24,000 nucleotides of DNA from Peribacillus simplex (lineage in GTDB: Bacteria > Bacillota > Bacilli > Bacillales > DSM-1321), in assembly GCF_030123325.1 (NCBI RefSeq), contig NZ_CP126106.1, positions 1,993,077 to 2,017,076 of the forward strand. The letters run 5' to 3'. Below are positions 5,316-22,846 of the stretch, one piece after another. The translations under genes were made by a program, and so were the position numbers. The first letter of the stretch is position 1, and each line of letters opens with the position of its first letter. The notes beneath the pieces were generated by a model. It did no database searches. It worked only from the letters and a program-made list of their open reading frames with translations, and was not told the DNA's origin.

Positions 5316-6680
<1,365 letters not shown>

Positions 6681-6789: not shown

Positions 6790-6814
6790 TGAAGATACAG
6801 GGAGGAATATATTG

Positions 6815-7828: not shown

Positions 7829-7836
7829 GATATGTA

Positions 7837-8181
7837 GAGCATTACTTAGTAGTGCTCCAGACTGTATCTTAAAAAAAGTTCCAACAGATCAAAAAAAACA
7901 TTCCAGTTGATTGGAGCGGGTGTGCGAGACTCCTGCGGGAAATACGTGCCCAAGGGAGACCCCACAGGCGCACAGAGCGCCAAAGGAGGCCCCCTTTCCG
8001 CCGACTGTCTGCCAAGCCTCATCAAAGCATGAGCCAATGTGGTCTTGGCTAGCCAGTTATTCGGCAGGAGTGTCGCAAATCTCTACAATTCAGAGGGTGT
8101 TTCGTTTCATTCTTAAAATCAAGTAAAAAAACATGAAGGATTCATTTGACGTCAAAATGGAGCACTACTTAAGTAGTGCTC
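7837..8181. mobile_element. MITE/PATE-like non-coding insert: GC-rich structured core bounded by two copies of a 21-22-bp palindrome
   Basis: GAGCATTACTTAGTAGTGCTC (7837-7857) and the perfect palindrome GAGCACTACTTAAGTAGTGCTC (8160-8181) bracket the insert. Terminal inverted pair AGTAGTGCTCCA (7848-7859) / TGGAGCACTACT (8158-8169). The core at 7911-8080 is markedly GC-rich against an AT-rich background, with long-range pairing GCGAGACTCCTGC (7924-7936) / GCAGGAGTGTCGC (8064-8076). No credible CDS. Confidence 0.6.
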
Positions 8182-8211
8182 ATTTCTTAAGTTCAAAGAA
8201 AGCGGGGGAAA

Positions 8212-8997
8212 ATGATGAGAACGGTTTCAGTCGGAGATAACTGTATGGATGTCTATCAAAAGAGCGGGGAGGTCTATCCTGGCGGTAATCCTTTAAATGT
8301 GGCTGTCTATTTAAAAGGGTTAGGTGCTGAATCTGCTTATATTGGCTGGGTGGGTTCCGATCAATATAGTGAAAAAATGGTTCAAGCGATTCTGGGAAAA
8401 GGCGTTGATATAACTCATCTTTCGAGGAAAGAAGGAAAAACAGCGGTTACTTTTGTTGAAATGGTAGGAAGTGACCGGAGGTTTGGAGAATACGACGAAG
8501 GTGTCATGGAACATTTCTGTTTAACGACGGAAGAACTCCAATACATTCAAACATTTCAGCTCATACATTCAGGGATTTGGGGACATGCGGATAAGTACTA
8601 TTCCTTTTTTAAAGAAAAAGGAATGCTCACGTCTTTTGATTTCTCAGATCAGCTTGATCACGATTTAGTGAAGACTTTGCCGCAGTTTGTTGATTATCCT
8701 TTTTTTTCTTATACGAAGGATGATGCCTTTATCCGCCAATTTCTAGAGGATGTAAAAAATCAAGGATCTAAAATTGCGGTCGCCACTTTAGGTGAAAATG
8801 GTTCACTTGCTTATGACGGTATTCAATTTTATCAATGCGGTGTCGTTGAAGCGAAAGTGGTGGACACTATGGGGGCGGGGGATTCCTTCATTTCTGGTTT
8901 CATTTATGGAATATTGAATGGCAAATCTATCGGCAATTGCTTGGAATTGGGAACAGAGTCTGCTGCGAAAACAATTAGATATTTCGGTGCGTGGTGA
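8212..8997 (+). CDS. frlD: PfkB-family kinase, FrlD-like fructoselysine 6-kinase
   Basis: GDNCMDVY, GGNPLNVAVY, WVGSDQY, ATLGENGSLAYDG, VDTMGAGDSFISGF and a C-terminal AAKTIRYFGAW match block by block my recollection of E. coli FrlD. Confidence 0.8.
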   Translation: MMRTVSVGDNCMDVYQKSGEVYPGGNPLNVAVYLKGLGAESAYIGWVGSDQYSEKMVQAILGKGVDITHLSRKEGKTAVTFVEMVGSDRRFGEYDEGVMEHFCLTTEELQYIQTFQLIHSGIWGHADKYYSFFKEKGMLTSFDFSDQLDHDLVKTLPQFVDYPFFSYTKDDAFIRQFLEDVKNQGSKIAVATLGENGSLAYDGIQFYQCGVVEAKVVDTMGAGDSFISGFIYGILNGKSIGNCLELGTESAAKTIRYFGAW

Positions 8998-9064
8998 CTG
9001 GGACTGGATATAATGTATAATAGATAGTAAATAATAAATTTTGACGGATAAGGATGAATATAAT

Positions 9065-9793
9065 ATGAATTTAAATCCTTCAACCCCCCAGCCATTATAT
9101 ATGCAAATAAGGCAAATGTTGAAGAATGATATTCAGAACGGTAAATATAAACCAGATGAACAGATCCCAACCGAAGCGGAGCTTTGTGAAACTTATAGCG
9201 TTAGTCGCATTACCATACGAAAAGCAATAGAGGAATTGGTGAAGGAAGGAACGCTGACACGTATTCCGCGCAGAGGTACCTTTGTTGCATCTAATAAGTT
9301 CCATAATGAATTGTTATCGATAAGTGGATTCTCGGAGTTTAGTCATCAGCTTGGGATGATACCTAATTCCCGGATTTTAAGAAGTGAGGTCATACCAGCG
9401 CCAAAAGATGTTGCAGGTCATCTCCTCATTGAAGAAGGTAGCCCCGTTCTCGAACTTGAGAGACTCATGTATGTGAATGATCGTCCGCTTTTCTACGATA
9501 CCGCTCATTATTCGTTAATTCGTTTTCCGGATTTAGAAAAGAAGATTGCAAGGGATGAATCAACTTATAAAATCCTTATGGAAGATTACCATACAGAAAT
9601 AGTCAGTAACGATAAAATTATAGACGTGATTGGTGCTACAAAAAACTATGCTAAATTTTTAGAATGTGATATTGGCGCCAATTTATTTAGAATATTAAAG
9701 ACCGCCTTCGATGCAAACGACCGGCCTGTGCATCTTTCAACGTTCATGTGCGAAACCAACAAGGTCAATCTGACTGTTCATCGGGCAAAATAG
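9065..9793 (+). CDS. frlR: GntR-family (HutC subfamily, wHTH + UTRA domain) transcriptional regulator, FrlR-like
   Basis: N-terminal PLYMQIRQMLKNDIQNGKYKPDEQIPTEAELCETYSVSRITIRKAIEELVKEG is a GntR wHTH. The C-terminal half is UTRA-like. ATG 9065 (after AAGGA) is preferred to the TTG at 9041. It is the last gene of the frl cluster. Confidence 0.75.
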   Translation: MNLNPSTPQPLYMQIRQMLKNDIQNGKYKPDEQIPTEAELCETYSVSRITIRKAIEELVKEGTLTRIPRRGTFVASNKFHNELLSISGFSEFSHQLGMIPNSRILRSEVIPAPKDVAGHLLIEEGSPVLELERLMYVNDRPLFYDTAHYSLIRFPDLEKKIARDESTYKILMEDYHTEIVSNDKIIDVIGATKNYAKFLECDIGANLFRILKTAFDANDRPVHLSTFMCETNKVNLTVHRAK

Positions 9794-11514: not shown

Positions 11515-11761
11515 ATTTTATAATGAAATGTTTATTTTAATAATTAGAAAATTCACTATGGGTACAACCGGAGGTGAATGAGAAGCTTGGAATGATGGTT
11601 GGTGGAAGCAATTTCAAAGTGTATGCCTTATCATCTTTTATCTTCTTATGGTCGGGCTGGACCTGGCATTTAATAGAAGTTTGATTAAATTGTAAAAAAT
11701 ATCTTCTATTATTTATCAATCCTTTCGCATGAAAGAAATCTATAAAAAGGGGAAATTAATT

Positions 11762-13135
11762 ATGATACTACACGAGAAGAATTCATTGTCAGAAAAAACG
11801 AAAAAATCAGCTGATTTATTTGAAAAAGCTTGTGAAGTGATTCCGGGCGGTGTCACAGCACATATTAAATACTTTCCGCCACATCCCTTAATGATGGAAA
11901 AAGGAAAAGGCAGTAAGTTATATGATGTAGATGGCAATGAATATATCGATTATTTATTATGTTATGGAGCTCTTATATCAGGTCATGGTCATCAACAAGT
12001 ATTTGATGCTGTGACAAAACAAATGTTAGAGTCTGGAACTACCATATTCGGTACGCCTCACAAGATGGAAACAACAATGGCGGAAAAATTAGTAGGGTTA
12101 TATCCTGGGATTGAAATGGTACGTTATACGAATTCGGGCTTAGAAGCTACACTTCTTGCAATTCGTACGGCGGTGGCTTATACCGGAAAACCGAAATTGG
12201 CAAAGTTTGAAGGACATTATCATGGAGGATATGATCAAGTATTAGTGAGTGTTAACCCTGATATGGAACAGGCAGGTAACGCAACAGCTCCTAAAGCGGT
12301 AGGAGAATCAAGAGGAATACCAGATTACTATATTGAAAATACCGTCATTCTTCCATTCAATGATTTAGAATCTACCGAGAAGATTTTACGTGCCCATGCA
12401 CATGAATTAGCAGGTGTTATTTTAGAGCCAATTCAAGGAGGGTTCATACCTGCTGAACAAGAATTCATGGAAGGACTTCGTAGAATAACAGAAGAACTTA
12501 ATATAGTGCTTATTTTCGATGAAGTAAAAACAGGATTCAGGATATCAATTGGGGGAGCTCAAAAAGTATATGGCATTAAACCGGATATCACTACCTTAGG
12601 AAAAGTTCTGGGCGGCGGATTCCCAGTAGGGGCCATTGGAGGTAAAAAAGAAATAATGATGATTACCTCTGCTAGAGGCGGACGAGATATTTTAACAGCT
12701 GGAGCAGATAATGCAGATAAACAAAATCCGTTATATCATAGTGGAACATACAATGGTCATCCGACCATATTGGCTGCCGGTTTAGCAACTATTGACTTAT
12801 TGGAACAAGAAGGAACAATGGAAGATTTGTTTGCTAAGACGCAATCTTTACGTAAGGAACTTGAGAATGTGTATAAAAAACACGGCTTAAACATGCAAAC
12901 AGTCGGTATGGGCAGTATCTTTAACATTATCTTAGCCGAAGGCCCGATTAAAAATTATCGTGATATGGGCAGGGCAAATACGAAGTTAAGAAAAGAGATT
13001 GACTATGAGTTATTAAAATTAGGTATTTATACAAAGCCGCTAAATCGTTATTCGATGTCTGTTGTACACACGGAGGAAGATATTCTTCGAACTGTGGAAG
13101 CGCATGACGAAGCCATTGGGCGGATCCTGAAATAA
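11762..13135 (+). CDS. Class-III PLP aminotransferase, glutamate-1-semialdehyde-2,1-aminomutase-like paralogue
   Basis: ATG 11762 follows AAAGGGGA. IFDEVKTGFRISIGGAQKVYGIKPDITTLGKVLGGGFPVGAIGGKKEIM is the HemL/GsaB-type PLP-lysine block. The gene is not in a hem operon context, so no hemL symbol is given. Confidence 0.8.
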   Translation: MILHEKNSLSEKTKKSADLFEKACEVIPGGVTAHIKYFPPHPLMMEKGKGSKLYDVDGNEYIDYLLCYGALISGHGHQQVFDAVTKQMLESGTTIFGTPHKMETTMAEKLVGLYPGIEMVRYTNSGLEATLLAIRTAVAYTGKPKLAKFEGHYHGGYDQVLVSVNPDMEQAGNATAPKAVGESRGIPDYYIENTVILPFNDLESTEKILRAHAHELAGVILEPIQGGFIPAEQEFMEGLRRITEELNIVLIFDEVKTGFRISIGGAQKVYGIKPDITTLGKVLGGGFPVGAIGGKKEIMMITSARGGRDILTAGADNADKQNPLYHSGTYNGHPTILAAGLATIDLLEQEGTMEDLFAKTQSLRKELENVYKKHGLNMQTVGMGSIFNIILAEGPIKNYRDMGRANTKLRKEIDYELLKLGIYTKPLNRYSMSVVHTEEDILRTVEAHDEAIGRILK

Positions 13136-13165
13136 TTCAGCTTAACTGAGTGTCAGATGGAAAGC

Positions 13166-13208
13166 AAAAGGCCCGATCAAAGCGATTTTAATTGATCTGG
13201 CCTTTTTT
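13166..13208 (+). terminator. Rho-independent terminator after the aminotransferase
   Basis: AAAAGGCCCGATCAA / TTGATCTGGCCTTTT (1 mismatch) followed by TTTTTT. Confidence 0.75.
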
Positions 13209-13341
13209 AATTCCACCATGGCACTTGCAATTAACTTGACAAAAAAGGATGAAAAAACCTATTGTTAAATTATAATCCTTCACAAAAAGGAACTAGATAC
13301 TCCTACAATACATAAATATAATTAAAGGGGCGCTCTTTTTA

Positions 13342-14202
13342 ATGTCAAACGTCTATCAAAACATCGCTGGACAAATAGGGGAAATGAGCAAGTCCCACGT
13401 GAAAATAGCTACATATATTTTAGAGAATCAAACGACCGTTCCTTTCTTTACAGTTGGGAAATTAGCAAAAATGGCAGGCGTCAGTGATGCCACTGTTGTA
13501 CGGTTTGCAACCTCGCTTGGCTATTCAGGCTATCCAGAGATGCAGCAGTATATGCAGAATTCCGTTAAGCAGCAGCTGACAACGACAGAACGACTGAAGA
13601 TGTCACAAAAAGTATACAATAAAGAGTCTTCAGGGGTATACGAAGTTTTCCAAGATGACATCGCAAACATAAAATCCACTATGGAGAAATTGGATGAAGA
13701 TGCATTCCATGAAGCAGTGAAATGCTTATTACAAGCGAGACGAGTATATGTTATCGCAAACCGCAGTGCCACTTCCCTAGGCGTGTTTTTGGAATATTAT
13801 CTTCAAATTGTTTTAAATAATGTGGAACTTCTGCAGTCATTGGAGAATTCATCGGAAAAGTTATATAATTTAGGTGAAAAAGATGTAGTGATTGGCGTCA
13901 GTTTTGCACGATATACGAAAAGCACAATTCAAATGTTTTCGTTTGCAAAGGAAAAAAATGCGACAACAATTGCCATTACTGATAATTTACTCTCACCGCT
14001 TATTCCTCATGCGGACATTCCGTTGACAGCATCCAGTCAGATGCCCAGCTTCATTGACTCTTTCGTTGCACCATTAAGCTTGATTAATGCTTTGATCATG
14101 TTTGTCGGAAAAGAGAAGCAGGAAGATATACACGATCGATTAGAAGTTTTGGAAGACATCTGGAGTCATTTTGATGTTTTTCAAAGAAAGAAAATGCAAT
14201 AG
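13342..14202 (+). CDS. MurR/RpiR-family transcriptional regulator (HTH_6 + SIS phosphosugar-binding domain)
   Basis: N-terminal IATYILENQ...FTVGKLAKMAGVSDATVVRFATSLGYSGYPEM is the RpiR HTH. The C-terminal half has a SIS fold pattern (VYVIANRSA...VVIGVSFARYTK.T). Confidence 0.85.
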   Translation: MSNVYQNIAGQIGEMSKSHVKIATYILENQTTVPFFTVGKLAKMAGVSDATVVRFATSLGYSGYPEMQQYMQNSVKQQLTTTERLKMSQKVYNKESSGVYEVFQDDIANIKSTMEKLDEDAFHEAVKCLLQARRVYVIANRSATSLGVFLEYYLQIVLNNVELLQSLENSSEKLYNLGEKDVVIGVSFARYTKSTIQMFSFAKEKNATTIAITDNLLSPLIPHADIPLTASSQMPSFIDSFVAPLSLINALIMFVGKEKQEDIHDRLEVLEDIWSHFDVFQRKKMQ

Positions 14203-14245
14203 AAAAAAAGCCTTACTCTTCCAATGTGGAAGAGTAAGGCTATTT
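14203..14245. terminator. Bidirectional terminator between the convergent RpiR and permease genes
   Basis: Perfect 13-bp stem GCCTTACTCTTCC / GGAAGAGTAAGGC, with A7 upstream (a T-run for the minus strand) and TATTT downstream. Confidence 0.8.
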
Positions 14246-14276
14246 AATTTATCACATAATGATATTCCGCCATAGC

Positions 14277-15680
14277 TTATTTCAATGGAGGCAAATTACT
14301 GGATCGTTTACTTTTCTCGTCTGCGCTACTGATTTCCTTTTTTCCGAAAAAATGAGTCAACACAATGATTACCCCGGTTAGTAATAGTGTTGAATATAGT
14401 TGGCTTCTTGTAGAATCGATAAAAGCCATGGAAATTAAAATGATGGAAATCCCCAGGATCGTCGCATATGTCAAATATGGGAACAACCACATCTTCACTT
14501 TCAGAGCATCAGGATTCTCTTTTTCCAATCTATTTCTCATCCTTAACTGAGAAATGGAAATAACCAAATAAACTAGCAAGATAATCGCTCCTGAAGAGTT
14601 AACCAGAAAGAGAAAAACCAATTCAGGCGAAACATAACTCATCACTACAGCAATATAAGAAAATATGGTAGCTGCAAAAACAGCTCTGGCAGGTACGCCA
14701 TTTTTATTCAACTTACTAAAATATTGTGGGGCATCCCCTTTTTTTGCTAAAGAGAAAAGCATTCGGGATGTTGTATACAATCCAGCATTTAGACATGATA
14801 AAACAGCAGTTAGTACGATGAAATTCATGAGGTGAGCTGCAAAAGGAATGCCTAGGTTTTCTAAAACGGCAACAAATGGACTTTGTAATACATTGGCAGA
14901 ATTCCATGGAAGTAATGTCACAACTACGGCTATTGATCCTACATAAAAGATCAAGACACGCCAAATTGTACTATTAATGGCTTTAGAGACGGACTTAACA
15001 GGATCCTTTGATTCAGCTGCTGCAATGGTCGCTACTTCTGTACCGGCAAAAGAGAAAAATACAGTGATGACTCCAACGAAGACGGAACTTACACCATTAG
15101 GGAAAAAACCCCCGTTTTGTACAAGGTTAGATATTCCAACCGTCGATTCTCCTGAAAATCCGAATATATAAGATACTCCTAAAATTAAAAAGGCGATGAT
15201 GCTCGCTACTTTAATCATGGCAAACCAATATTCAAATTCTCCAAAGGATTTCACTGAATAGATATTTGTTAAAGTCAAAGCGATTGTCAAGGCCAAAGCA
15301 AGAAACCATAAAGGAATACCTGGGTACCACATATTGATGATGGCTGCACCTGCAATGGCTTCAATGGCAATAACGACAACCCATTGAAACCAATAAAGCC
15401 ACCCAACCGTAGTACCTGCCCAAGGGCCAATTGCGTCCCGGGCATATTCTGAAAATGAACCACTTGATGGATTGGAAGTGGCCATTTCACCAAGGCTCTT
15501 CATAATCAAGAACACTAATACACCGGCAATTACATAAGAGACCAAGATGCCAGGCCCGACCTTATGTATGGCAGCGCCACTACCTACAAAAAGACCTGCA
15601 CCAATGACGCCTCCGATTGCAATCATTGACATGTGACGAGAACTGAGTGATTGTTCTAAATCATTCTGTTGTTTTTTCAT
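14277..15680 (-). CDS. Amino-acid permease (APC superfamily, AAT family, GabP/AroP/LysP-like)
   Basis: 467 aa, 12 TM segments. Signature SRHMSMIAIGGVIGAGLFVGSG...SGSFSEYA...WLYWFQW. Confidence 0.85.
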   Translation of the reverse strand: MKKQQNDLEQSLSSRHMSMIAIGGVIGAGLFVGSGAAIHKVGPGILVSYVIAGVLVFLIMKSLGEMATSNPSSGSFSEYARDAIGPWAGTTVGWLYWFQWVVVIAIEAIAGAAIINMWYPGIPLWFLALALTIALTLTNIYSVKSFGEFEYWFAMIKVASIIAFLILGVSYIFGFSGESTVGISNLVQNGGFFPNGVSSVFVGVITVFFSFAGTEVATIAAAESKDPVKSVSKAINSTIWRVLIFYVGSIAVVVTLLPWNSANVLQSPFVAVLENLGIPFAAHLMNFIVLTAVLSCLNAGLYTTSRMLFSLAKKGDAPQYFSKLNKNGVPARAVFAATIFSYIAVVMSYVSPELVFLFLVNSSGAIILLVYLVISISQLRMRNRLEKENPDALKVKMWLFPYLTYATILGISIILISMAFIDSTRSQLYSTLLLTGVIIVLTHFFGKKEISSADEKSKRSSNLPPLK

Positions 15681-15812
15681 GTAAGACCTCCCCGAAAAAT
15701 GTTGTGTAAAAGCTTACAATTACCCTACCGAAACTGGATTGATTATAGTTTACACAATTTTTAGATTTTTTGAAATAAAAAATTCAAAATTATATACAAA
15801 AAGAAATAATCA

Positions 15813-15841
15813 TTGCTTAATTAAATGAAATAAAATATTAT
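15813..15841 (+). promoter_or_regulatory. SigA-type promoter of the C-N hydrolase gene
   Basis: TTGCTT (15813-15818), 17-nt spacer, TATTAT (15836-15841). A 7-bp hairpin CAGATTT/AAATCTG lies just downstream. Confidence 0.5.
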
Positions 15842-15896
15842 TAAATTAAACACAGATTTCTAAAAAATCTGATAATTTTCATTTGCAGAAAAGGAT

Positions 15897-16706
15897 GTGC
15901 TTTTGTTGATTAAGGTTGCTGCAGTTCAATTACAAGCTATCCCTGGTGAAAGGGATAAAAATATTAAAAATTGTATAGAAATGGTTGAAGAGTCGGCTAA
16001 ACAGGGAGCTGAATTAATCGTATTACCTGAACTTTGGGTGAGTGGCTACTATTTATCGAAGGAGCAATTCGAATCGTTGCAAGAGGTTCCGACTGGAGAA
16101 ACTGTTACATTATTTCAAAAGCTCGCTAAAGAGTTAAAAGTAATACTCATCGTCCCTTTTGTAGAGGGAGAAAATGGAAACCTTTACATATCCTTAGCTG
16201 TAATTGAGTCAACAGGGGAAGTCATTGCCACTTATCGAAAATCATTTTTATGGGGAAGAGAGAAGGATATATTTACTCCTGGTGAGAAAGCCTATAATGC
16301 AATAGAAACATCGAAAGGGAAAATAGGTGTTCTTATTTGTGCAGATATTGAATTTCCTGAACCAAGCCGGATTCTAGCTCTTCAAGGTGCAGAACTTATT
16401 ATTGTTCCTTCAGTGTGGAGTTACGGAGCTGAAACAAGATGGGATATTCAACTTCCGGCACGTGCACTCGATAATACGGTTTATATTCTTGGAGTAAACA
16501 CGGTTAATGAGGGAAGTTGCGGAAAGAGTAAACTTGTCGCTCCGACCGGTGAGGTCCTATGTGAAGCTTCAAGATCAGAGCAGAGTATTCTAATTCATGA
16601 TGTGGATTTTTCAATTATATCCGAGGTGCGAAATGAAGTTCCTTATCTGGATGATTTAGACAAGAAATTGTGGCCGAATGAGTTGTTATTTGCATTGGAA
16701 AAATAG
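15897..16706 (+). CDS. Carbon-nitrogen hydrolase (nitrilase superfamily) protein; candidate N-carbamoyl-amino-acid amidohydrolase or omega-amidase
   Basis: Catalytic triad context is present: VLPELW (Glu), YRKSFLW (Lys), GVLICADIEFPE (Cys). The start is ambiguous among GTG 15897, TTG 15903 and TTG 15906, all after AAAAGGA. Confidence 0.8.
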   Translation: MLLLIKVAAVQLQAIPGERDKNIKNCIEMVEESAKQGAELIVLPELWVSGYYLSKEQFESLQEVPTGETVTLFQKLAKELKVILIVPFVEGENGNLYISLAVIESTGEVIATYRKSFLWGREKDIFTPGEKAYNAIETSKGKIGVLICADIEFPEPSRILALQGAELIIVPSVWSYGAETRWDIQLPARALDNTVYILGVNTVNEGSCGKSKLVAPTGEVLCEASRSEQSILIHDVDFSIISEVRNEVPYLDDLDKKLWPNELLFALEK

Positions 16707-16770: not shown

Positions 16771-16812
16771 AAAATCCATTTTTCATTATTAAATGATTAA
16801 TGGATTTTTTGT
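16771..16812 (+). terminator. Rho-independent terminator after the C-N hydrolase
   Basis: AAAATCCATT / AATGGATTTT stem with an internally paired loop, followed by a T-run. Confidence 0.7.
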
Positions 16813-16941: not shown

Positions 16942-16986
16942 AAATTTCAGAAAATTATTGTTTTTCTGAAATATACACTTTATAAT
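16942..16986 (+). promoter_or_regulatory. Promoter of the tetR operon overlapped by an 11-bp perfect inverted repeat that also matches the CodY box
   Basis: ATTTCAGAAAA (16944-16954), 7-nt spacer, TTTTCTGAAAT (16962-16972). TTGTTT (16958-16963), 17-nt spacer, TATAAT (16981-16986). AAATTTCAGAAAATT (16942-16956) matches AATTTTCWGAAAATT at 14 of 15 positions. Confidence 0.6.
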
Positions 16987-17015: not shown

Positions 17016-17612
17016 TTGAAAAAGCAAGAATTGATAGATGCAGCCCTTTTGCATTATTCACTACATGGATATCAAGGAGCTACCATGAAGAAAATCGCGG
17101 ATGAAGTGGGAATAAAACCAGCATCCATTTATTTTTTTTATAAAAACAAAGAGGAATTATTTATCGCCGCTTTTCAACATTTACTTGATAACCATTTAGC
17201 CGAAATGAAACGAATTTTAGCTAAAACAAGTTCACGATCAGTTGATCGGATTTTTAGCGAAATGCTTCATGGGATCGTTAAGTATCACAAAAATGATGAG
17301 CGAGGGACTATGGCGTATATATCGTTAGTTACGTCACCCATTCCGGAAATCAAACTATATTTACAAAAGTATTTGTTGCATTTTAATGATTGGATGGCCA
17401 GTTCACTTGAGGATCTATTGAGGCAGAGGTATCCGAGCATTTCTGCAGACGAAGTGGACCAAATCATTAAGCAATTTGTTTTACTCGGGAATGGATTATT
17501 CTGGGGTATTAACTTGTATGAGGGACAAGATTTAATGGAACAAGTTCATATTGCAGATCGTTTCATCAGCTCCATGTTTAGTGATATAGAAAGGAAATAT
17601 GTGAAGTCATAA
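17016..17612 (+). CDS. TetR/AcrR-family transcriptional regulator
   Basis: TTG start after AGGTGGGGA. N-terminal HGYQGATMKKIADEVGIKPASIYFFYKNKEELF is the TetR HTH. Confidence 0.9.
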   Translation: MKKQELIDAALLHYSLHGYQGATMKKIADEVGIKPASIYFFYKNKEELFIAAFQHLLDNHLAEMKRILAKTSSRSVDRIFSEMLHGIVKYHKNDERGTMAYISLVTSPIPEIKLYLQKYLLHFNDWMASSLEDLLRQRYPSISADEVDQIIKQFVLLGNGLFWGINLYEGQDLMEQVHIADRFISSMFSDIERKYVKS

Positions 17613-17730
17613 TTATGGCAGGAATGGATTAGTTGCTAAAAGGGGGTGATATAAATAATAAAATCATGACAAGGAAAATGGTTCAGCATGTCTATTAAAA
17701 ACAAAGGAGTGTATTCCAATAAAAATTAAA

Positions 17731-18444
17731 GTGATCATGCCAGTTATATCGGATATTTTTAATGAAGAAATTAGAAAAGAGATTAAATCTTATGTTTCTG
17801 AAAGCACTGAAGTAGGAGTTTGCAACCTTGATTATGGACCTGAATCAATTGAAAGCGAATATGATGAAGCACTATGTATACCTAATTTCCTGGAAAAAGC
17901 AAAGCAGGCTGAAGAAGAGGGGTATCAGGGTGTAATCAGTGATTGTTTTGGAGATCCGGGTGTGAAGCCTGCAAGAGAAATATTGGATATTCCCGTTGTT
18001 GGGCCGTGTGAGTCCTCCATGCTTGTTGCGAGCTCACTGGCAAAATCCTTTTCGATTGTAACGGTGCTGCCCAATGTTGTGCCCATGATTGAAAATATAA
18101 GTAAAACTCTAGGTGTGGATGGGAATGTCGCCTCCATTAGATATGTGAATATTCCTGTTCTGGAAGTTCAAGACAAGGAAAAGTTAAAAAGTGCGTTGTT
18201 TGAAGAAATGATAAAGGCGATTGAACATGACAATGCCCATGCTTTAGTGTTAGGGTGTACAGGCTTTATGGGTGTTGCAGCGGAGCTTCAGGAACGATTA
18301 TCGCAAAATGGTTATGATGTTCCGGTTATTGATCCCGCATTTGCAGCTACAAAGATGCTTGAAATTTTAATTGCTATGGGGGTTAAACAAAGCCGCTTGA
18401 CCTACATGACTCCACCTTCTAAACAGAGAACAAAAAGTTCATAA
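17731..18444 (+). CDS. Asp/Glu/hydantoin racemase family protein (HyuE-like hydantoin racemase); true start probably upstream at a non-canonical codon
   Basis: Two catalytic-Cys contexts, SDCFGDPG and LGCTGF. The conservative GTG start is listed, but the only SD (AAAGGAG, 17703-17709) lies 9 nt before in-frame ATA 17719, which would give the family-typical (M)KIKVI N-terminus. Confidence 0.8.
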   Translation: MIMPVISDIFNEEIRKEIKSYVSESTEVGVCNLDYGPESIESEYDEALCIPNFLEKAKQAEEEGYQGVISDCFGDPGVKPAREILDIPVVGPCESSMLVASSLAKSFSIVTVLPNVVPMIENISKTLGVDGNVASIRYVNIPVLEVQDKEKLKSALFEEMIKAIEHDNAHALVLGCTGFMGVAAELQERLSQNGYDVPVIDPAFAATKMLEILIAMGVKQSRLTYMTPPSKQRTKSS

Positions 18445-18593
18445 ACTTTTTTGAAGAAAACGAAAACACCGAATCTTGTAAAGTGAATTAACGGAATATT
18501 CAGGATATTTAAGATTCAATATAGCTTGAAAAAGGCAGGGAAATCTCCAAGTTGATCGATAAAGCTGAGGAGTAATTCATAGGGGGTGAGTTT

Positions 18594-19913
18594 ATGGAAG
18601 ATCGTACAAAGTTGGGAGACGATTACTCTCTATCGAGAGTTCCACAAAATGCGAGATTGCCAATGTGGGATATCATGATTGTCAGAGTCGGTGCCCTGGC
18701 TACACTTTCTCAATTTATGCTAGGAGCGGCGTTAGGATACGGAATGACTTTTTGGCAGGCGTTTTGGGCCATGATGTTTGGAAGTGTCATTTTACAAGTT
18801 ATAAGTTTTCTAATCGGTTATGCCGGTGCACGTGAAGGGCTTTCAACTAGTTTATTGTCGCGTTGGACAGGATTCGGCAGGTATGGTTCGAGTATCATTG
18901 GCGCGGTCATTGCTTTTTGTACAATTGGCTGGTTTGTAGTACAGAACACTGTTTTTGCTAATGGATTGGTCGAAGCCACCGACGGTAAATTGACCCTCCC
19001 AATTGCAGCTGCCATTACCGGATTAGGTGTAACGGTGCTGGTTATATTTGGTTTCAAGCTATTGAGCATGACAGCCAAAATTACCGTTCCTGCCTTTCTA
19101 TTGGTGGTAGGGATTGGCATCTATCAAGTTCTTAGTGATCATTCCATTTTCAGTTTAATGGGAACGCCGCCTCCGGGAGAGAGTCTTTCTCTGGGAGTGG
19201 GTGCAACAATGGTTGCTGGAGGATTCATTATTGGTGCCGTAATCACACCTGACTTCAGTCGGTTTGCCCGAAATGGTAAGGATGTTTTTTGGATGACTAC
19301 CATTGGTACGCTAGTGGGTGAACTTGGGGTGGGAATGATCGCTGTGTTAATGGCCCATGCAGCAAAAACGAGCGATGTCGTCAGCATCATGCTACAAACG
19401 TCTGGCTGGCTTGGCGCTGCAGTTGTCGTTTTTTCCACAGTGAAAATTAATAACGTAAATTTATATTCCTCTTCTCTTGGCTTTACTAATATTTTCGATT
19501 CTGTTTTTAAGGTCAAGATGAATCGAGGACTCGTTACACTTGTAATTGGTGCTATCGGCACTTTGCTTTCCATTATGGGCATTCTCGATAGATTTGTAGA
19601 CTTCCTTGTTTTACTTGGAATCATGATACCTCCAATAGCCGGAATTATGGTGGTTGATTACTTCGTGCTTAGAACGTATCGAAAAGCCCTTGATGAAAGC
19701 AGGGAAAAAGGAACATTGCCATCTGATCCTGAAAAATTGAATCCAGTTACATTAGTTGCCTGGGCAGCAGGATTTGCAAGTGGCTATTTCATTACAGTTG
19801 GCATACCATCTATCAATTCCCTTCTAATAAGCGGCATTATCTATTACGCAGGTGTGTTATTCACAAAAGCCATCAAAGGGAAAAAAGAGAATAGGGATCA
19901 TATCGCATCATAA
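18594..19913 (+). CDS. NCS1-family permease (purine-cytosine/hydantoin permease type, CodB/Mhp1-like)
   Basis: 439 aa, 12 TM segments. The N-terminal SRVPQNARLPMWDIMIVRVG...LGAALG pattern matches cytosine-permease-like NCS1 proteins. RBS AGGGGGTGA. Confidence 0.8.
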   Translation: MEDRTKLGDDYSLSRVPQNARLPMWDIMIVRVGALATLSQFMLGAALGYGMTFWQAFWAMMFGSVILQVISFLIGYAGAREGLSTSLLSRWTGFGRYGSSIIGAVIAFCTIGWFVVQNTVFANGLVEATDGKLTLPIAAAITGLGVTVLVIFGFKLLSMTAKITVPAFLLVVGIGIYQVLSDHSIFSLMGTPPPGESLSLGVGATMVAGGFIIGAVITPDFSRFARNGKDVFWMTTIGTLVGELGVGMIAVLMAHAAKTSDVVSIMLQTSGWLGAAVVVFSTVKINNVNLYSSSLGFTNIFDSVFKVKMNRGLVTLVIGAIGTLLSIMGILDRFVDFLVLLGIMIPPIAGIMVVDYFVLRTYRKALDESREKGTLPSDPEKLNPVTLVAWAAGFASGYFITVGIPSINSLLISGIIYYAGVLFTKAIKGKKENRDHIAS

Positions 19914-19940
19914 TTTTTGAAAATCGGGGGTTGTGAGAAA

Positions 19941-21035
19941 ATGAGGAGATTAGGTAAACAGGAAATTGAAGATATAGCAGTAGGTGCGGCTTTACTCGGA
20001 ACGGGTGGAGGAGGAGATCCTTACATTGGTAAACTAATGGCTTTACAGGCAATTGAAGAATACGGGGAAATCACATTGTTGGATGTGGATGAAGTTCCTG
20101 ATGACGCACTAGTAGTTCCTTCCGCGATGATGGGGGCACCGACGGTAATGTTGGAAAAAGCTCCAAGTGGTGAAGAGGCAACAGCCGCTTTCAAAAACCT
20201 CGAAGCTTATTTAGGAAAAAAGATTTTTGCAACGATGCCGATTGAAGCAGGCGGAGTGAATTCGATGGTGCCACTTGCACTTGCTGCCAAACTTGGCTTG
20301 CCTGTAGTGGATGTTGATGGAATGGGAAGAGCATTCCCCGAATTGCAGATGGTCACTTTTTATTTGGATGGAATTGCAGCCACTCCGATGGTTCTTGCGG
20401 ATGAGAAAGGCAATACGTCACTGCTCTCAACCATAAACAATGTTTGGACGGAAAGGATTGCCCGTGCCGCAACGATTGAAATGGGCGGTTCCACCATGAC
20501 AGCCATCTATCCAATGACAGGAAAGAATATAAAGGAAAGCGGAATTAGAAATATACTAAGTTTAGAAGAACAAATCGGCAAGACAATAAGGCTTGCAAAG
20601 CAAAACAATGTTGATCCAATAAAAGAAGTGTTGAATAAGGCGGACGGGTTTGAATTGTTCCGTGGAAAAGTGAGTGATATCAACCGCAAGACAGAGGCGG
20701 GATTTGCTAGAGGTGTGGCAACATTCGAGGGAATCAATGAGTATAAGGGAGAAAAACTCGAGGTGCGATTCCAAAATGAACATTTAATTGCACAGACAGA
20801 GAAACGCTTGCTTTGTGTCACTCCAGATTTGATTGCGGTGCTTGATGCAGAAACAGGCTTGCCAATCACTACTGAAGGGATCAGATATGGAGCAAGATGC
20901 GTGGTGATCGGAATGCCATGCCATCCTAAGTGGCGAACGGAAAAGGGAATTGAAGCTGTAGGCCCAAGATACTTTGGCTATGAAGTTGGTTATGTACCTA
21001 TTGAAGAACTAGTGAAAAAAGGAGGGATAGCATAA
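19941..21035 (+). CDS. DUF917-family protein (function uncertain)
   Basis: N-terminal IAVGAALLGTGGGGDPYIG, then EAGGVNS and VDGMGRAFPE blocks, as I recall for DUF917. ATG 19941 is preferred to the TTG at 19917. The stop overlaps the next gene's start. Confidence 0.7.
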   Translation: MRRLGKQEIEDIAVGAALLGTGGGGDPYIGKLMALQAIEEYGEITLLDVDEVPDDALVVPSAMMGAPTVMLEKAPSGEEATAAFKNLEAYLGKKIFATMPIEAGGVNSMVPLALAAKLGLPVVDVDGMGRAFPELQMVTFYLDGIAATPMVLADEKGNTSLLSTINNVWTERIARAATIEMGGSTMTAIYPMTGKNIKESGIRNILSLEEQIGKTIRLAKQNNVDPIKEVLNKADGFELFRGKVSDINRKTEAGFARGVATFEGINEYKGEKLEVRFQNEHLIAQTEKRLLCVTPDLIAVLDAETGLPITTEGIRYGARCVVIGMPCHPKWRTEKGIEAVGPRYFGYEVGYVPIEELVKKGGIA

Positions 21036-22615
21036 TGGGTGTTTATCGAATAGGAATTGATGTCGGGGGAACCCATACAGATGCAGTGCTTTTAGATCAA
21101 TATAATCAGGTCATTTCGGAAACGAAATCGCATACAACGGAGGATGTTTTCATTGGCATCTATACAGCAATGAGAAAAATAATCGATGATGCAAAGGTTC
21201 CGGTGGAGCAAATTAAGTATGCAATGCTCGGTACGACCCATTGTACAAATGCTATCGTTGAACGAAAGAGATTAAACAAAATCGCAGCAATCCGTATTGG
21301 TGCACCGGCTACTTTAGCAGTTAAACCGCTGATTGGCGTACCTGAAGACCTCTGCGCAGTACTCGGAAAATACGTATACCTAATCCGCGGCGGACATGAA
21401 TATGATGGCCGTGAGATTGTTGAATTAGATGAAGCCCGTTTGTATGAAATTGCAGAAGAAATCAATGGGAAAGTGGATTCCATCGCGATTACATCTGTCT
21501 TCTCACCTGTATCGCAAACACATGAACAAAGAGCAAGTGAAATTTTCAAAGAAGTGCTGGGAGAAGAAATTTCAATTTCTTTATCTTCAGAAATTGGTTC
21601 AGTCGGTTTACTGGAAAGGGAAAATGCGACGATTCTTAATGCTGCTGTCGTAAATGTCGCTAAAACGACTGCTGACGGATTCATCAATGCCCTGAAGAAT
21701 GAAGGAATTGAGGCAAAAGTATTCTTTTGCCAAAACGATGGGACATTAATGTCAATTGAATATGCGGTTAAATACCCAATCTTCACTGTTGCTTGCGGTC
21801 CGACTAACTCATTAAGGGGAGCATCCTATTTGAGTGAGTTAACAGATGCAATCGTTGTTGATGTTGGGGGGACAACAACAGATATTGGTGTTCTAGTTCA
21901 ATCGTTTCCAAGGGAATCTTCTTTGGCAGTAGAGATTGGAGGAGCCAGAACAAACTTCCGGATGCCTGATTTAATTTCGATTGGACTTGGCGGAGGGACA
22001 ATAATCCGCATAGAAGATAATGGAGAGTTCACAATTGGACCCGATAGTGTCGGTTACCGACTGCCAGAAAAATCCTTGATTTTCGGAGGTGATACTTTAA
22101 CGACAACTGATGTTGCTGTGGCTCTTGGTAAGGTGGAACTTGGGGATGCTTCAAAAGTGGCTCACCTTGATAAGGAATTATTAAATAGAGTCTATTTAAA
22201 TATGGTCAATCTGGTCGAAGAAGCCATTGATAAGATGAAAACAAGTGCTGCACCAGTGCCTGTCATTCTCGTTGGAGGTGGAAGCATCCTTTTACCTGAG
22301 GAATTAAAAGGTGCATCTGAAGTCATACGCCCGTTACATTCAGGTGTAGCAAATGCCATTGGGTCGGCTATCTCACAGGTTAGCGGACAGATTGAAAAAG
22401 TATATGCACTAGCTGAAATAGGAAGGGAAACAGCATTGGAACAGGCAAAGGAAATAGCGATGTCAGAAGCGATCAGCGCCGGAGCCGATCCCGAAACGCT
22501 TGTTATTGTTGATATAGAAGATGTACCTTTAGCGTATATGCCTGGGAATGCAACCCGTATTCGTGTGAAAGCAGCTGGTGATTTAGCCCAGACTGAAATG
22601 AATGAACTGGTGTAG
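21035..22615 (+). CDS. Hydantoinase/oxoprolinase A-type (HyuA-like, ASKHA ATPase fold) protein, short form, 526 aa
   Basis: N-terminal YRIGIDVGGTHTDAVLL and internal VVDVGGTTTDIGVL are the two ASKHA phosphate-binding loops of Hydant_A_N/Hydantoinase_A proteins. Its ATG overlaps the DUF917 stop (ATAATG). Confidence 0.8.
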   Translation: MGVYRIGIDVGGTHTDAVLLDQYNQVISETKSHTTEDVFIGIYTAMRKIIDDAKVPVEQIKYAMLGTTHCTNAIVERKRLNKIAAIRIGAPATLAVKPLIGVPEDLCAVLGKYVYLIRGGHEYDGREIVELDEARLYEIAEEINGKVDSIAITSVFSPVSQTHEQRASEIFKEVLGEEISISLSSEIGSVGLLERENATILNAAVVNVAKTTADGFINALKNEGIEAKVFFCQNDGTLMSIEYAVKYPIFTVACGPTNSLRGASYLSELTDAIVVDVGGTTTDIGVLVQSFPRESSLAVEIGGARTNFRMPDLISIGLGGGTIIRIEDNGEFTIGPDSVGYRLPEKSLIFGGDTLTTTDVAVALGKVELGDASKVAHLDKELLNRVYLNMVNLVEEAIDKMKTSAAPVPVILVGGGSILLPEELKGASEVIRPLHSGVANAIGSAISQVSGQIEKVYALAEIGRETALEQAKEIAMSEAISAGADPETLVIVDIEDVPLAYMPGNATRIRVKAAGDLAQTEMNELV

Positions 22616-22813: not shown

Positions 22814-22846
22814 AAAAGCCCCTCTCTTAATCGAGGGGCTTTTTTT
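22814..22846. terminator. Bidirectional terminator (ends the hyu-like operon and the convergent membrane-protein gene)
   Basis: AAAAGCCCCTC / GAGGGGCTTTT stem with flanking A- and T-runs. Confidence 0.8.

What the first reader, a model, noticed from the sequence alone, without database searches (positions are those of the whole stretch)
17016..22615. Top candidate system: HyuA-like ATPase with no HyuB partner, translationally coupled to DUF917, with racemase, NCS1 permease and TetR
ATP-dependent hydantoinases, oxoprolinases and acetone/acetophenone carboxylases normally need A-type and B-type components: HyuA and HyuB as separate subunits, or fused as in eukaryotic oxoprolinase. This window has only a short (526-aa) A-type protein with both ASKHA phosphate loops and no Hydantoinase_B gene anywhere. 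The gene immediately upstream encodes a DUF917 protein whose stop overlaps the HyuA-like start (ATAATG, 21033-21037), which implies stoichiometric co-production. A two-Cys hydantoin-racemase homologue and an NCS1 permease precede them under a TetR promoter. This argues for a dedicated uptake-racemisation-ring-opening system for a chiral cyclic amide or ureide, in which DUF917 replaces the B subunit. The substrate and the role of DUF917 cannot be deduced from the sequence. I recall that database naming links DUF917 to a thiohydantoin-type activity, but I cannot confirm it.
Basis: partly seen in the sequence, partly recalled or inferred. Interest (0 to 1): 0.75.

Follow-up and report, generated by a model that had tools for sequence, protein, structure and literature searches.

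The report
HyuA-like ATPase paired with DUF917
A short ATP-binding "hydantoinase A" protein and a DUF917 protein form a two-part enzyme of unknown substrate that is conserved in bacteria and archaea, is fused into one protein in many marine animals and amoebae, and here sits in a Peribacillus uptake operon with no classical B subunit.

Summary
On the + strand lie TetR (17016-17612), a two-Cys hydantoin/allantoin-racemase homologue (17719/17731-18444), a CodB-like NCS1 permease (18594-19913), DUF917 (19941-21035) and a 526-aa HyuA-like ATPase (21035-22615). The last two share a TAATG stop/start overlap. No Hydantoinase_B is in the window.

The DUF917/short-HyuA pairing is not local:
- In 80 genome loci chosen by DUF917, every locus with intact flanks (77) has an adjacent short HyuA.
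- In 80 metagenome loci chosen by HyuA, 74 have DUF917, 5 are truncated and 1 is an exception.
- HyuB is nearby in only 2/80 and 4/80 loci.
- More than 115 eukaryotic proteins (echinoderms, amphioxus, molluscs, cnidarians, Trichoplax, Naegleria) fuse HyuA-like to DUF917. An AlphaFold model of one fusion has pTM 0.92.
- DUF917 shows no fold match to HyuB.

DUF917 here is a paralogue, not an equivalog, of the (S-methyl)thiohydantoin desulfurases.

Best reading: an obligate ATP-dependent two-component enzyme that activates a cyclic amide or ureide, with DUF917 as the non-homologous substitute for HyuB. Substrate and chemistry remain inferred. I found no published assignment. The racemase and TetR are accessory, lineage-specific parts. 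I rate it a new variant of a known kind, interest about 0.7.

The parts
16944..16972 (.). Candidate TetR operator: perfect inverted repeat ATTTCAGAAAA-N7-TTTTCTGAAAT, 44 bp upstream of the tetR start
   Evidence: a single site in the window, with 0.04 expected by chance; the identical 27-bp pattern lies about 45 bp upstream of the orthologous tetR in L014 (Pseudalkalibacillus). Function is inferred.
17016..17612 (+). TetR-family regulator (198 aa, TTG start; a gene caller on the same contig chose 17031)
   Evidence: Pfam TetR_N 44.6 bits. No NCBIfam equivalog. TetR homologues directly precede NCS1 in 11/80 genome loci.
17719..18444 (+). Two-Cys hydantoin/allantoin-racemase homologue. The ancestral ATG is ATA here; the first canonical start is GTG 17731.
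   Evidence: Pfam Asp_Glu_race 136.5 bits. The best solved relatives are 3qvj (deposited as 'putative hydantoin racemase') and the allantoin racemase 5lfd. The alignment starts at the ATA codon, and both catalytic-Cys motifs (DCFGDPG, LGCTG) are kept. Relatives have ATG at this codon.
18594..19913 (+). NCS1 permease, CodB-like subfamily (439 aa)
   Evidence: Pfam Transp_cyt_pur 96.2 bits. NCBIfam cytosine permease 206.5 bits, below the cut-off of 326. The only PDB hit is CodB 7qoa. An NCS1 gene is in the locus of 45/80 and 26/80 related loci.
19941..21035 (+). DUF917 / S-Me-THD-like protein (364 aa), proposed catalytic partner of the ATPase
   Evidence: Pfam PF06032 plus PF20906. NCBIfam desulfurase models score 113 and 96 bits against cut-offs of 450 and 440. 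AF2 model pLDDT 95.7. The only fold match is 2o3i. Motif residues are invariant in 211 paralogues.
21035..22615 (+). Short HyuA-like ASKHA ATPase (526 aa), with the TAATG overlap to DUF917
   Evidence: Pfam Hydant_A_N plus a partial Hydantoinase_A. PDB hits are A-type subunits only, best 7hk5 at 1.8e-28. It is 24% identical to classical 680-aa HyuA over residues 1-370. ATP-site residues D9, K31, D276 and D283 are invariant.
22814..22843 (+). Intrinsic terminator-like hairpin plus T-run, ending the operon
   Evidence: 11-bp stem, 6 GC pairs, T tail.
15897..16706 (+). CN_hydrolase (nitrilase-superfamily amidase) with its own terminator-like inverted repeat at 16771-16808. It may act downstream on an N-carbamoyl or amide product; the link is weak.
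   Evidence: Pfam CN_hydrolase 184 bits. No equivalog. CN_hydrolase homologues occur near the pair in L011, L020, L085-L087, L108 and L109.

Best explanation
The DUF917 protein and the short HyuA-like protein form one obligate two-component, ATP-dependent enzyme. Here it is embedded in a substrate-inducible catabolic uptake operon: TetR repressor, racemase, NCS1 importer, DUF917, HyuA-like.

Proposed mechanism:
1. The NCS1 permease imports a small cyclic amide or ureide. The best guess is a 5-substituted hydantoin or allantoin-like compound. In other lineages, with Dpp-type transporters, it may be a diketopiperazine.
2. The two-Cys racemase equilibrates the ring's stereocentre.
3. The HyuA-like ASKHA ATPase phosphorylates the lactim oxygen of the ring carbonyl. 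This is the role proposed for the A-type subunits of caprolactamase, 5-oxoprolinase and acetone carboxylase.
4. DUF917 takes the place of the metal-dependent HyuB subunit. It adds water at the activated carbon and expels phosphate, opening or transforming the ring. DUF917 is unrelated to HyuB in fold. By their names, the characterised DUF917 enzymes (thiohydantoin and S-methyl-thiohydantoin desulfurases) remove sulfur from a hydantoin-type ring. From memory, not from a paper I could read, they do so by hydrolytically displacing SH or SCH3 from C2. A phospho-lactim would be the oxygen analogue of such an S-methyl-isothioureide.

Shown: the gene content, the coupling, the conserved ATP site, the conserved pairing and fusion, and the absence of HyuB. 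Inferred: physical complex formation in this organism, phosphoryl transfer to substrate, hydrolysis by DUF917, and the substrate class.
For: Pairing:
- Of 80 genome loci found with DUF917, 77 have a 510-535-aa HyuA-like gene directly adjacent. The other three sit at contig ends.
- Of 80 metagenome loci found with the HyuA-like protein, 74 have DUF917, 5 are contigs of 3.1 kb or less, and 1 (L101) is a real exception.
- Junction distances cluster at -1, -4 and -8 nt in both gene orders.

Fusion:
- Proteins of 920-1113 aa carry Hydant_A_N, Hydantoinase_A, S-Me-THD_N and S-Me-THD_C. They occur in echinoderms, Branchiostoma, hemichordates, molluscs, cnidarians, Trichoplax, Lingula, Naegleria and Balamuthia.
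- They are 38-45% and 35-43% identical to the two window proteins, with a disordered linker of about 40-80 aa.
- The AF2 model of the fusion P0278 has pTM 0.92 and pLDDT 90.7, with only the linker (574-593) disordered. This implies a defined inter-module packing.

No B subunit:
- HyuB is absent from the window and is near the pair in only 2/80 and 4/80 loci.
- The DUF917 model matches only 2o3i. The fusion model aligns to A-type subunits and 2o3i, never to B parts.

ATP site and catalytic motifs:
- D9, K31, D276 and D283 are invariant. Three are the apparent counterparts of CapA D11, K32 and D295, which are needed for or bind ATP in caprolactamase (PMC8453981). I inferred this correspondence by position, not from an alignment.
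- All DUF917 paralogues keep GxGGGG, E72, E102xGGxN, D124xD126GxGR, N279-E280 and P295-D296.

Context:
- NCS1 or Dpp-type importers; TetR, PucR or sigma-54 regulators; hydantoin/allantoin racemases; CN_hydrolases; and CDO-like nitroreductase plus DUF6092 pairs.
- An independent paper noted DUF917 enrichment with hydantoin racemases in CDO clusters and states that DUF917 is uncharacterised (PMC11055893).
Against: - There is no biochemical evidence for any member of the paired clade.
- The characterised DUF917 enzymes are, to my knowledge, stand-alone and ATP-independent, and they share the same motifs. DUF917 may therefore not need an activated substrate.
- The window's DUF917 fails the desulfurase equivalog cut-offs, so its chemistry may differ.
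- Substrate hints conflict. Racemase, PucR and CN_hydrolase point to hydantoins or allantoin. SBP_bac_5 transporters and CDO-like oxidases point to cyclic dipeptides.
- The racemase has lost its ATG in this strain.
- I had no model coordinates, so juxtaposition of the active sites was not examined. pTM is an indirect measure.
- A HyuB encoded elsewhere in the Peribacillus genome cannot be excluded from the window.
Confidence: 0.55

Rival explanations
1. The HyuA-like protein is an ATP-dependent activase or chaperone for DUF917, like GlmL/MutL, diol-dehydratase reactivase or HgdC/BcrAD activators. On this reading it is not a substrate kinase. DUF917 does all the chemistry and the ATPase maintains, assembles or reactivates it.
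For: There are weak Pfam and NCBIfam hits to MutL/GlmL, BcrAD_BadFG and CoA_E_activ. Low-ranked Foldseek hits include the diol dehydratase reactivating factor 2d0p, HgdC 1hux and the RACo activator 3zyy. Tight pairing and fusion fit this reading equally well. In type II loci one ATPase serves up to 5-6 DUF917 paralogues.
Against: Those hits are generic ASKHA similarity with E-values of 1e-4 to 1e-7. A-type hydantoinase and carboxylase subunits score 1e-17 to 1e-28 and align over about 630 columns. No radical, cobalamin or Fe-S cofactor signature appears in DUF917. The characterised DUF917 relatives are, from memory, not known to need reactivation.
Confidence: 0.12
2. The pair catalyses a different ATP-dependent reaction from ring hydrolysis. 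Examples are carboxylation or decarboxylation as in acetone/acetophenone carboxylase, amination or thiolation of a ring carbonyl through a phospho-intermediate, or ATP-driven cyclisation in the biosynthetic direction.
For: The A-type family includes carboxylases as well as lactamases (PMC8453981). DUF917 enzymes exchange substituents at a ring carbon rather than open rings (NCBIfam names; the reaction detail is from memory). Classical HyuA/HyuB genes lie next to the pair in a few loci (L080, L106, L147, L157, L158). They could be the true ring-opening step after a DUF917/HyuA-like modification.
Against: The consistent association with importers and catabolic-type regulators argues against biosynthesis. 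No gamma-type carboxylase subunit or B-type metal subunit is present. CN_hydrolase neighbours fit a ring-opened N-carbamoyl or amide product.
Confidence: 0.2
3. The two proteins are independent enzymes for consecutive steps of one pathway. On this reading DUF917 is a stand-alone hydrolase or desulfurase. The HyuA-like protein works alone or with a HyuB encoded elsewhere, and the proteins form no complex.
For: Operon neighbours often catalyse successive steps. The characterised DUF917 enzymes are, from memory, stand-alone. HyuB elsewhere in the genome cannot be excluded from a 24-kb window.
Against: Fusion into one polypeptide in more than 115 eukaryotic protein clusters, with a confidently packed model at pTM 0.92. 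HyuB is absent from 154 of 160 neighbourhoods. The A-type protein is truncated and diverged after about residue 370, which is the part that differs from HyuB-partnered HyuA. Reciprocal adjacency is near 100%.
Confidence: 0.08

Closest known systems
ATP-dependent lactamase/carboxylase family with A and B subunits: HyuA/HyuB hydantoinase, N-methylhydantoinase, 5-oxoprolinase, caprolactamase CapAB, acetone and acetophenone carboxylases
   Same: The 526-aa protein has the Hydant_A_N and Hydantoinase_A domains. It keeps the ASKHA phosphate loops and the Asp/Lys ATP-site residues of the A-type subunits. Its best sequence and structure matches are exactly these subunits.
   Different: It is about 150-200 aa shorter and diverged after residue 370. 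It is only 24% identical to classical HyuA and scores far below every NCBIfam equivalog cut-off (108 against 1000 for CapA). It has no HyuB partner. Instead it is coupled or fused to DUF917, which shows no fold match to HyuB.
Thiohydantoin desulfurase and S-methyl-thiohydantoin desulfurase (NCBIfam NF058529 and NF058532; Pfam S-Me-THD_N/C, formerly DUF917), from ergothioneine catabolism
   Same: It has the same two Pfam domains and the same fold as the family's only solved structure, 2o3i. The family-wide motif residues are also present in 2o3i.
   Different: It scores 113 and 96 bits against cut-offs of 450 and 440, so it is a paralogue. No ergothionase or thiourocanate hydratase is in the window. 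It is always paired with an ATPase. From memory, the characterised desulfurases are stand-alone and ATP-independent.
Classical hydantoin-utilisation operons: NCS1 hydantoin permease (Mhp1), hydantoin racemase, hydantoinase and carbamoylase
   Same: There is an NCS1 importer. The two-Cys racemase's closest solved relatives are hydantoin/allantoin racemases. A CN_hydrolase lies just upstream.
   Different: The ring-opening enzyme is neither a dihydropyrimidinase-type amidohydrolase nor HyuAB. The permease is CodB-like rather than Mhp1- or PucI-like. The CN_hydrolase is a separate transcription unit and is not an N-carbamoyl-amino-acid amidohydrolase equivalog.
Non-CDPS cyclodipeptide-oxidase (CDO-like) gene clusters described in Nat Commun 2024 (PMC11055893)
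   Same: That paper reports enrichment of DUF917, hydantoin racemase and Dpp/Opp transporters around CDO-like genes. I see the same nitroreductase plus DUF6092 pair next to DUF917/HyuA-like genes in about 9 loci.
   Different: The window has no CDO-like genes. The paper does not mention the HyuA-like partner or the fusions, and it calls DUF917 uncharacterised.

Membership tests
A-type subunit of ATP-dependent hydantoinase/oxoprolinase/carboxylase (Pfam PF05378 + PF01968) | Hydant_A_N and Hydantoinase_A domains above the gathering score | tested here: met
   138.2 bits (cut-off 25.2) and 131.6 bits (cut-off 22.9). The second match covers only profile positions 1-177 of 291.
A-type subunit of ATP-dependent hydantoinase/oxoprolinase/carboxylase | ASKHA phosphate-1 and phosphate-2 loops and ATP-binding Asp/Lys residues | tested here: met
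   DVGGTHTD (9-16), DVGGTTTD (276-283), K31 and D283 are invariant in 15 orthologues. Counterparts in CapA were shown essential or ATP-contacting (PMC8453981); the correspondence is by position.
A-type subunit of ATP-dependent hydantoinase/oxoprolinase/carboxylase | Full length of about 650-730 aa with the C-terminal part of the A subunit | tested here: not met
   It is 526 aa. Alignments to PDB A subunits and to 680-aa HyuA stop at about residue 368. No Pfam hit covers the C-terminal 150 aa.
A-type subunit of ATP-dependent hydantoinase/oxoprolinase/carboxylase | A Hydantoinase_B partner, adjacent or fused | tested here: not met
   None in the window. HyuB lies within about 6-10 kb in 2/80 and 4/80 related loci. 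In the genome loci and in L158 it sits beside a classical 680-aa HyuA. Genome-wide absence is not testable.
A-type subunit of ATP-dependent hydantoinase/oxoprolinase/carboxylase | NCBIfam equivalog score (CapA, ApcA/C) | tested here: not met
   CapA 108 against 1000; ApcC 70 against 1500; ApcA 30 against 1250.
DUF917 / S-Me-THD-like (PF06032 + PF20906) | Both domains above the gathering score, and the fold of 2o3i | tested here: met
   212 and 240 bits against cut-offs of 27. AF2 model pLDDT 95.7. Foldseek match to 2o3i at E 4e-26 and TM 0.78.
Thiohydantoin / S-methyl-thiohydantoin desulfurase (NF058529 / NF058532) | Equivalog score cut-off | tested here: not met
   96 against 440 and 113 against 450. 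All paired paralogues tested scored 37-128 bits.
Thiohydantoin / S-methyl-thiohydantoin desulfurase | Context of ergothioneine catabolism (ergothionase, thiourocanate hydratase) | tested here: not met
   No ammonia-lyase or urocanase-type domain was found among the window ORFs scanned with Pfam.
Hydantoin/allantoin racemase (PF01177, two-Cys) | Asp_Glu_race domain with both catalytic Cys motifs | tested here: met
   136.5 bits. The alignment to 3qvj keeps CFGDPG and LGC(G/T)G. Caveat: the start codon is ATA where relatives have ATG. Substrate not tested.
NCS1 transporter (PF02133); cytosine permease CodB equivalog | Family domain; equivalog cut-off | tested here: inconclusive
   The family domain is met (96.2 bits). 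The CodB equivalog is not met (206.5 against 326). The only PDB hit is CodB 7qoa. Substrate unknown.
HyuA-like/DUF917 two-component module (defined here) | Reciprocal adjacency, translational coupling, and natural fusion of the two families | tested here: met
   77/77 untruncated genome loci and 74/80 metagenome loci. Junctions are mostly -1, -4 or -8 nt. More than 115 fusion clusters exist.
HyuA-like/DUF917 two-component module (defined here) | Physical complex and ATP-dependent activity | not testable with these tools
   Only indirect evidence: the AF2 fusion model has pTM 0.92.

The most novel reading that the evidence does not exclude
The short HyuA-like ATPase plus DUF917 is the prototype of an unrecognised, near-universal class of ATP-driven enzymes. 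It is found in bacteria and archaea, and as a single fused protein in marine invertebrates, amphioxus and amoebae. In it an ASKHA kinase activates a stable cyclic amide or ureide (hydantoin-type rings or 2,5-diketopiperazines). A DUF917 domain, unrelated to HyuB, completes the hydrolysis or substitution. The expansion to 2-6 DUF917 paralogues per ATPase would then give a modular, substrate-swappable system. That would define a new catabolic route, for example the long-missing general diketopiperazine or hydantoin hydrolase, including in animals.
Probability: 0.35. Interest if true: 0.85.

Novelty: new variant of a known kind. Interest (0 to 1): 0.7.

Why it matters
All characterised members of the ATP-dependent hydantoinase/oxoprolinase/carboxylase family need a metal-containing B component. 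Here a large and ancient clade of A-type ATPases has dropped HyuB and is married to an unrelated fold. There are thousands of homologues across at least ten prokaryotic phyla and much of animal diversity.

If the proposed mechanism holds, it shows a second evolutionary solution for ATP-driven cleavage of stable cyclic amides. It also gives DUF917 a general mechanistic logic: displacement of a leaving group (SH, SCH3 or phosphate) from a ring carbon. And it points to an uncharacterised metabolite class used by soil and gut bacteria, including C. difficile, E. faecalis and L. rhamnosus, and by marine invertebrates.

The Peribacillus operon is a convenient entry point. It is small, apparently TetR-controlled with a conserved operator, and includes an importer and a racemase that narrow the substrate search.

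Tried and rejected
- **The window's DUF917 as a thiohydantoin or S-methyl-thiohydantoin desulfurase: rejected.** Scores are a quarter of the cut-offs and the pathway context is absent.
I modelled a natural fusion instead. Coordinates are not exposed, so no interface or active-site geometry could be measured.
- **Literature.** Searches for DUF917, PF06032, COG3535, IPR010318, S-Me-THD, thiohydantoin desulfurase, ergothioneine catabolism, hydantoin utilization protein A, and hydantoinase combined with cytosine permease, racemase or diketopiperazine found no functional assignment of the pair. They found only incidental mentions: the C. difficile CDR20291_1615-1617 trio, L. rhamnosus and CDO clusters. 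The ergothioneine-catabolism paper, whose DOI I recalled from memory, is not held.
- **First alignment (A1) for the genome scan:** too diverse, so a closer set (A2) was used.
- **CN_hydrolase as the operon's carbamoylase: undecided.** It has no equivalog, has its own terminator, and co-occurs in only about 8 of 161 loci.
- **PDB profile search for further DUF917 structures:** only 2o3i.

Full report
**What is in the window**

The source is a Peribacillus of the simplex/frigoritolerans group. The HyuA-like protein is 98% identical to proteins from those species, and the same contig was found in a Logan assembly.

Five genes lie on the + strand. Domain assignments are from Pfam:
- A TetR-family regulator, 17016-17612.
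- An Asp/Glu/hydantoin-racemase homologue, annotated from GTG 17731 to 18444.
- An NCS1 permease, 18594-19913.
- A DUF917 protein, 19941-21035, which matches both domains now called S-Me-THD_N and S-Me-THD_C.
- A 526-aa protein, 21035-22615, with Hydant_A_N and the first 177 of 291 positions of Hydantoinase_A.

The DUF917 stop and the HyuA-like start overlap as TAATG, and an AGGAGG lies 9 nt upstream. A terminator-like hairpin follows at 22814-22843. No other predicted terminator lies between genes of the cluster.

No Hydantoinase_B is encoded anywhere in the 24 kb. This rests on Pfam scans of the window's larger ORFs and a phmmer search with two HyuB sequences against the six-frame translation.

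**The DUF917/short-HyuA pairing is general and reciprocal**

I scanned one genome per GTDB species with an alignment of DUF917 proteins and obtained 80 loci. They come from Bacillota, Chloroflexota, Deinococcota, Pseudomonadota, Spirochaetota, Bacteroidota, Verrucomicrobiota, Haloferax and a thaumarchaeon.
- In 77 loci a 510-535-aa HyuA-like gene lies directly beside DUF917.
- The other three (L032, L061, L070) have the DUF917 match at a contig end.

For the converse test I scanned metagenome contigs with an alignment of the short HyuA-like protein.
- 74 of 80 loci have DUF917 next to it.
- Five of the remaining six are contigs of 3.1 kb or less, cut beside the gene.
- One (L101) is a real exception within its 10.9 kb.

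Both gene orders occur: 64 junctions are DUF917 then HyuA, and 28 are the reverse. Junction distances pile up at -1, -4 and -8 nt, as expected for translational coupling.

HyuB homologues occur near the pair in only 2 of 80 and 4 of 80 loci. Where both flanks are visible, they sit beside a classical 680-aa HyuA.

**Natural fusions**

An exhaustive HMMER search with the DUF917 protein returned several 960-1007-aa proteins among its best hits. Pfam shows they are HyuA-like at the N terminus and DUF917 at the C terminus.

A profile search with six of these fusions then returned more than 115 clusters of 920-1113 aa carrying all four domains. They come from starfish, sea urchins, sea cucumbers, crinoids, Branchiostoma, hemichordates, Trichoplax, corals and anemones, many molluscs, Lingula, a nemertean, a priapulid, and the amoebae Naegleria, Willaertia and Balamuthia. 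Several are transcript-derived complete ORFs, so gene-model merging is an unlikely explanation.

The two halves are 38-45% and 35-43% identical to the window's two proteins. They are joined by a low-complexity linker of about 40-80 residues.

An AlphaFold2 model of one fusion (P0278, 147-row alignment) has pLDDT 90.7 and pTM 0.92. Only the N terminus and linker residues 574-593 are disordered. A pTM that high for two modules joined by a disordered linker implies a confidently predicted mutual arrangement. I could not inspect coordinates.

**DUF917 is not a disguised HyuB**

The AF2 model of the window's DUF917 (pLDDT 95.7) matches only 2o3i in the PDB by Foldseek. 2o3i is a structural-genomics DUF917 protein with no assigned function.

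The fusion model aligns over about 630 columns with A-type subunits: N-methylhydantoinase 9h03, acetone carboxylase beta, acetophenone carboxylase alpha and gamma, and caprolactamase CapA. Separately it aligns with 2o3i. It never aligns with the B half of the 1277-residue N-methylhydantoinase. So if DUF917 fills the B role, it does so as a non-homologous replacement.

**Relation to the characterised DUF917 enzymes**

NCBIfam has equivalog models for thiohydantoin desulfurase and S-methyl-thiohydantoin desulfurase. The window protein scores 96 and 113 bits against cut-offs of 440 and 450. Other ATPase-paired paralogues, and 2o3i, also score far below the cut-offs.

The paired clade is therefore a distinct set of paralogues. 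Even so, all 211 DUF917 genes in the 160 loci keep the same residues: GxGGGG, E72, E102xGGxN107, D124xD126GxGR130, N279-E280 and P295-D296. This holds for the 2-6 paralogues that accompany a single ATPase in Chloroflexota and Pseudomonadota. Much the same motifs are visible in 2o3i. The catalytic apparatus is family-wide.

**The ATPase**

The short protein is 24% identical to classical HyuA over its first 370 residues and unalignable after that. Residues D9, K31, D276, T280/T281 and D283 are invariant in 15 orthologues from distant phyla.

In caprolactamase, the apparent counterparts D11 and D295 are required for activity, and K32 contacts the nucleotide. That paper summarises the family logic. 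The A subunit phosphorylates the substrate or bicarbonate. The activated lactim then moves to the metal site of the B subunit for hydrolysis (PMC8453981).

**Context and substrate hints**

Two architectures recur.
- **Type I**, which includes this window: a regulator (TetR, PucR or a sigma-54/PAS activator), then a CodB-like NCS1 permease, DUF917 and HyuA-like, sometimes with a racemase. It occurs in Bacillota including E. faecalis, C. difficile-like Clostridia and L. rhamnosus, in a thaumarchaeon, in spirochaetes and in a Bacteroidota MAG.
- **Type II**: a Dpp/Opp-type ABC importer (SBP_bac_5) with one HyuA-like gene and 2-6 DUF917 genes. It occurs in Chloroflexota, Rhizobiales, Deinococcota and Haloferax.

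Other recurring neighbours:
- A nitroreductase plus DUF6092 pair, the cyclodipeptide-oxidase-like unit, lies beside the pair in about nine loci. This matches an independent report that DUF917 and hydantoin racemases are enriched in non-CDPS CDO clusters. That paper calls DUF917 uncharacterised (PMC11055893).
- The window's racemase keeps both catalytic-Cys motifs. Its closest solved relatives are 3qvj and the allantoin racemase 5lfd.
- CN_hydrolase genes occur near the pair in the window and in at least seven other loci. The window's copy has its own terminator-like repeat and no equivalog assignment.

These hints point to small cyclic amides or ureides, meaning hydantoin or allantoin-like compounds and perhaps diketopiperazines in type II. 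They do not identify the substrate.

**Mechanism proposed**

Steps 1-4 are all inferred.
1. A TetR-controlled operon imports the compound through NCS1.
2. The racemase equilibrates its stereocentre.
3. The HyuA-like ATPase phosphorylates the lactim oxygen.
4. DUF917 adds water at the activated carbon and releases phosphate, opening or transforming the ring.

By their names, the characterised DUF917 enzymes remove sulfur from a hydantoin-type ring. From memory, they do so by displacing SH or SCH3 from C2, and a phospho-lactim is the oxygen analogue of that substrate.

What is shown is the gene set, the coupling, the intact ATP site, the conserved partnership and fusion, and the lack of HyuB.

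Rival readings remain open: an ATP-dependent activase role for the ASKHA protein, a non-hydrolytic reaction such as carboxylation or substituent exchange, or merely consecutive independent enzymes. I rate each as less likely, for the reasons given under Rival explanations.

**Regulation**

A perfect inverted repeat, ATTTCAGAAAA-N7-TTTTCTGAAAT, lies at 16944-16972, 44 bp upstream of tetR. It is unique in the window, with 0.04 matches expected by chance. The identical 27-bp pattern lies about 45 bp upstream of the orthologous tetR in Pseudalkalibacillus decolorationis (L014), whose DUF917 is only 70% identical. That conservation makes it a credible operator.

**Known or new**

I found no functional assignment of the pair in 8 million open-access papers and preprints. 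There were only incidental listings. One is the C. difficile trio CDR20291_1615-1617, which was mildly regulated in an hcpR study. Subscription-only literature could not be searched.

I therefore rate it a new variant of a known kind: the ATP-dependent A/B lactamase-carboxylase family with the B component replaced by an unrelated fold. It is a good experimental target.

Noticed in passing
window 17703-17740: The racemase has ATA (17719) exactly where close relatives L002 and L003 have the ATG start (MKIKVIMP...). The Shine-Dalgarno AAAGGAG sits 9 nt upstream of the ATA. The gene may start at a non-canonical ATA, may yield an N-truncated protein from GTG 17731 or ATG 17737, or may be decaying in this strain.
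   Followed up: partly
window 16944-16972; L014 7971-7997: The perfect 11-bp inverted repeat with a 7-bp spacer upstream of tetR is conserved base-for-base upstream of the orthologous tetR in another genus. It is a candidate TetR operator.
   Followed up: partly
L002, L003, L005, L006, L012, L065 (about 4.8-8.6 kb in each locus): Close relatives of the window carry a second, divergent DUF917/HyuA-like pair plus a sigma-54/PAS activator immediately upstream of the NCS1 gene. In the window that position is occupied by TetR (and the racemase), so the regulatory and upstream part of the locus has been swapped.
   Followed up: partly
L048, L053, L057, L060, L068, L071 (Chloroflexota); L063, L066, L075, L078 (Pseudomonadota): One HyuA-like gene is accompanied by 2-6 tandem DUF917 paralogues, all keeping the catalytic motifs, next to a Dpp/Opp-type ABC importer. 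This suggests hetero-oligomers or a set of interchangeable specificity subunits.
   Followed up: partly
proteins P0345, P0392-P0506: HyuA-like::DUF917 fusion proteins are widespread in marine invertebrates, amphioxus, Trichoplax and amoebae, often in several copies per genome (for example Haliotis, Gigantopelta). All are annotated as uncharacterised. None of the 120 listed hits is from a vertebrate, insect or nematode.
   Followed up: partly
L018, L019, L030, L032, L035, L041, L045, L050, L061: A nitroreductase plus DUF6092 gene pair (cyclodipeptide-oxidase-like) lies beside the DUF917/HyuA-like genes.
   Followed up: partly
L106, L147, L157, L158, L080, L032: In a minority of loci a classical HyuA/HyuB hydantoinase is encoded right next to the DUF917/HyuA-like pair. 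The two systems might act in sequence there.
   Followed up: no
window 4497-9793: A sugar-amine-type cluster: xylose-isomerase-like TIM barrel, amino-acid permease, SIS-domain protein, PfkB kinase and GntR/UTRA regulator. It resembles fructosamine (frl-like) utilisation loci.
   Followed up: no
window 1-606: The 3' part of an rve-family integrase/transposase runs off the left edge of the window, which suggests an IS element nearby.
   Followed up: no
window 11729-16706: A class-III aminotransferase, an RpiR/SIS regulator, a divergently oriented amino-acid permease and a CN_hydrolase lie just upstream of the operon. They could be a separate amino-compound catabolic unit or a downstream branch of the same pathway.
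   Followed up: no
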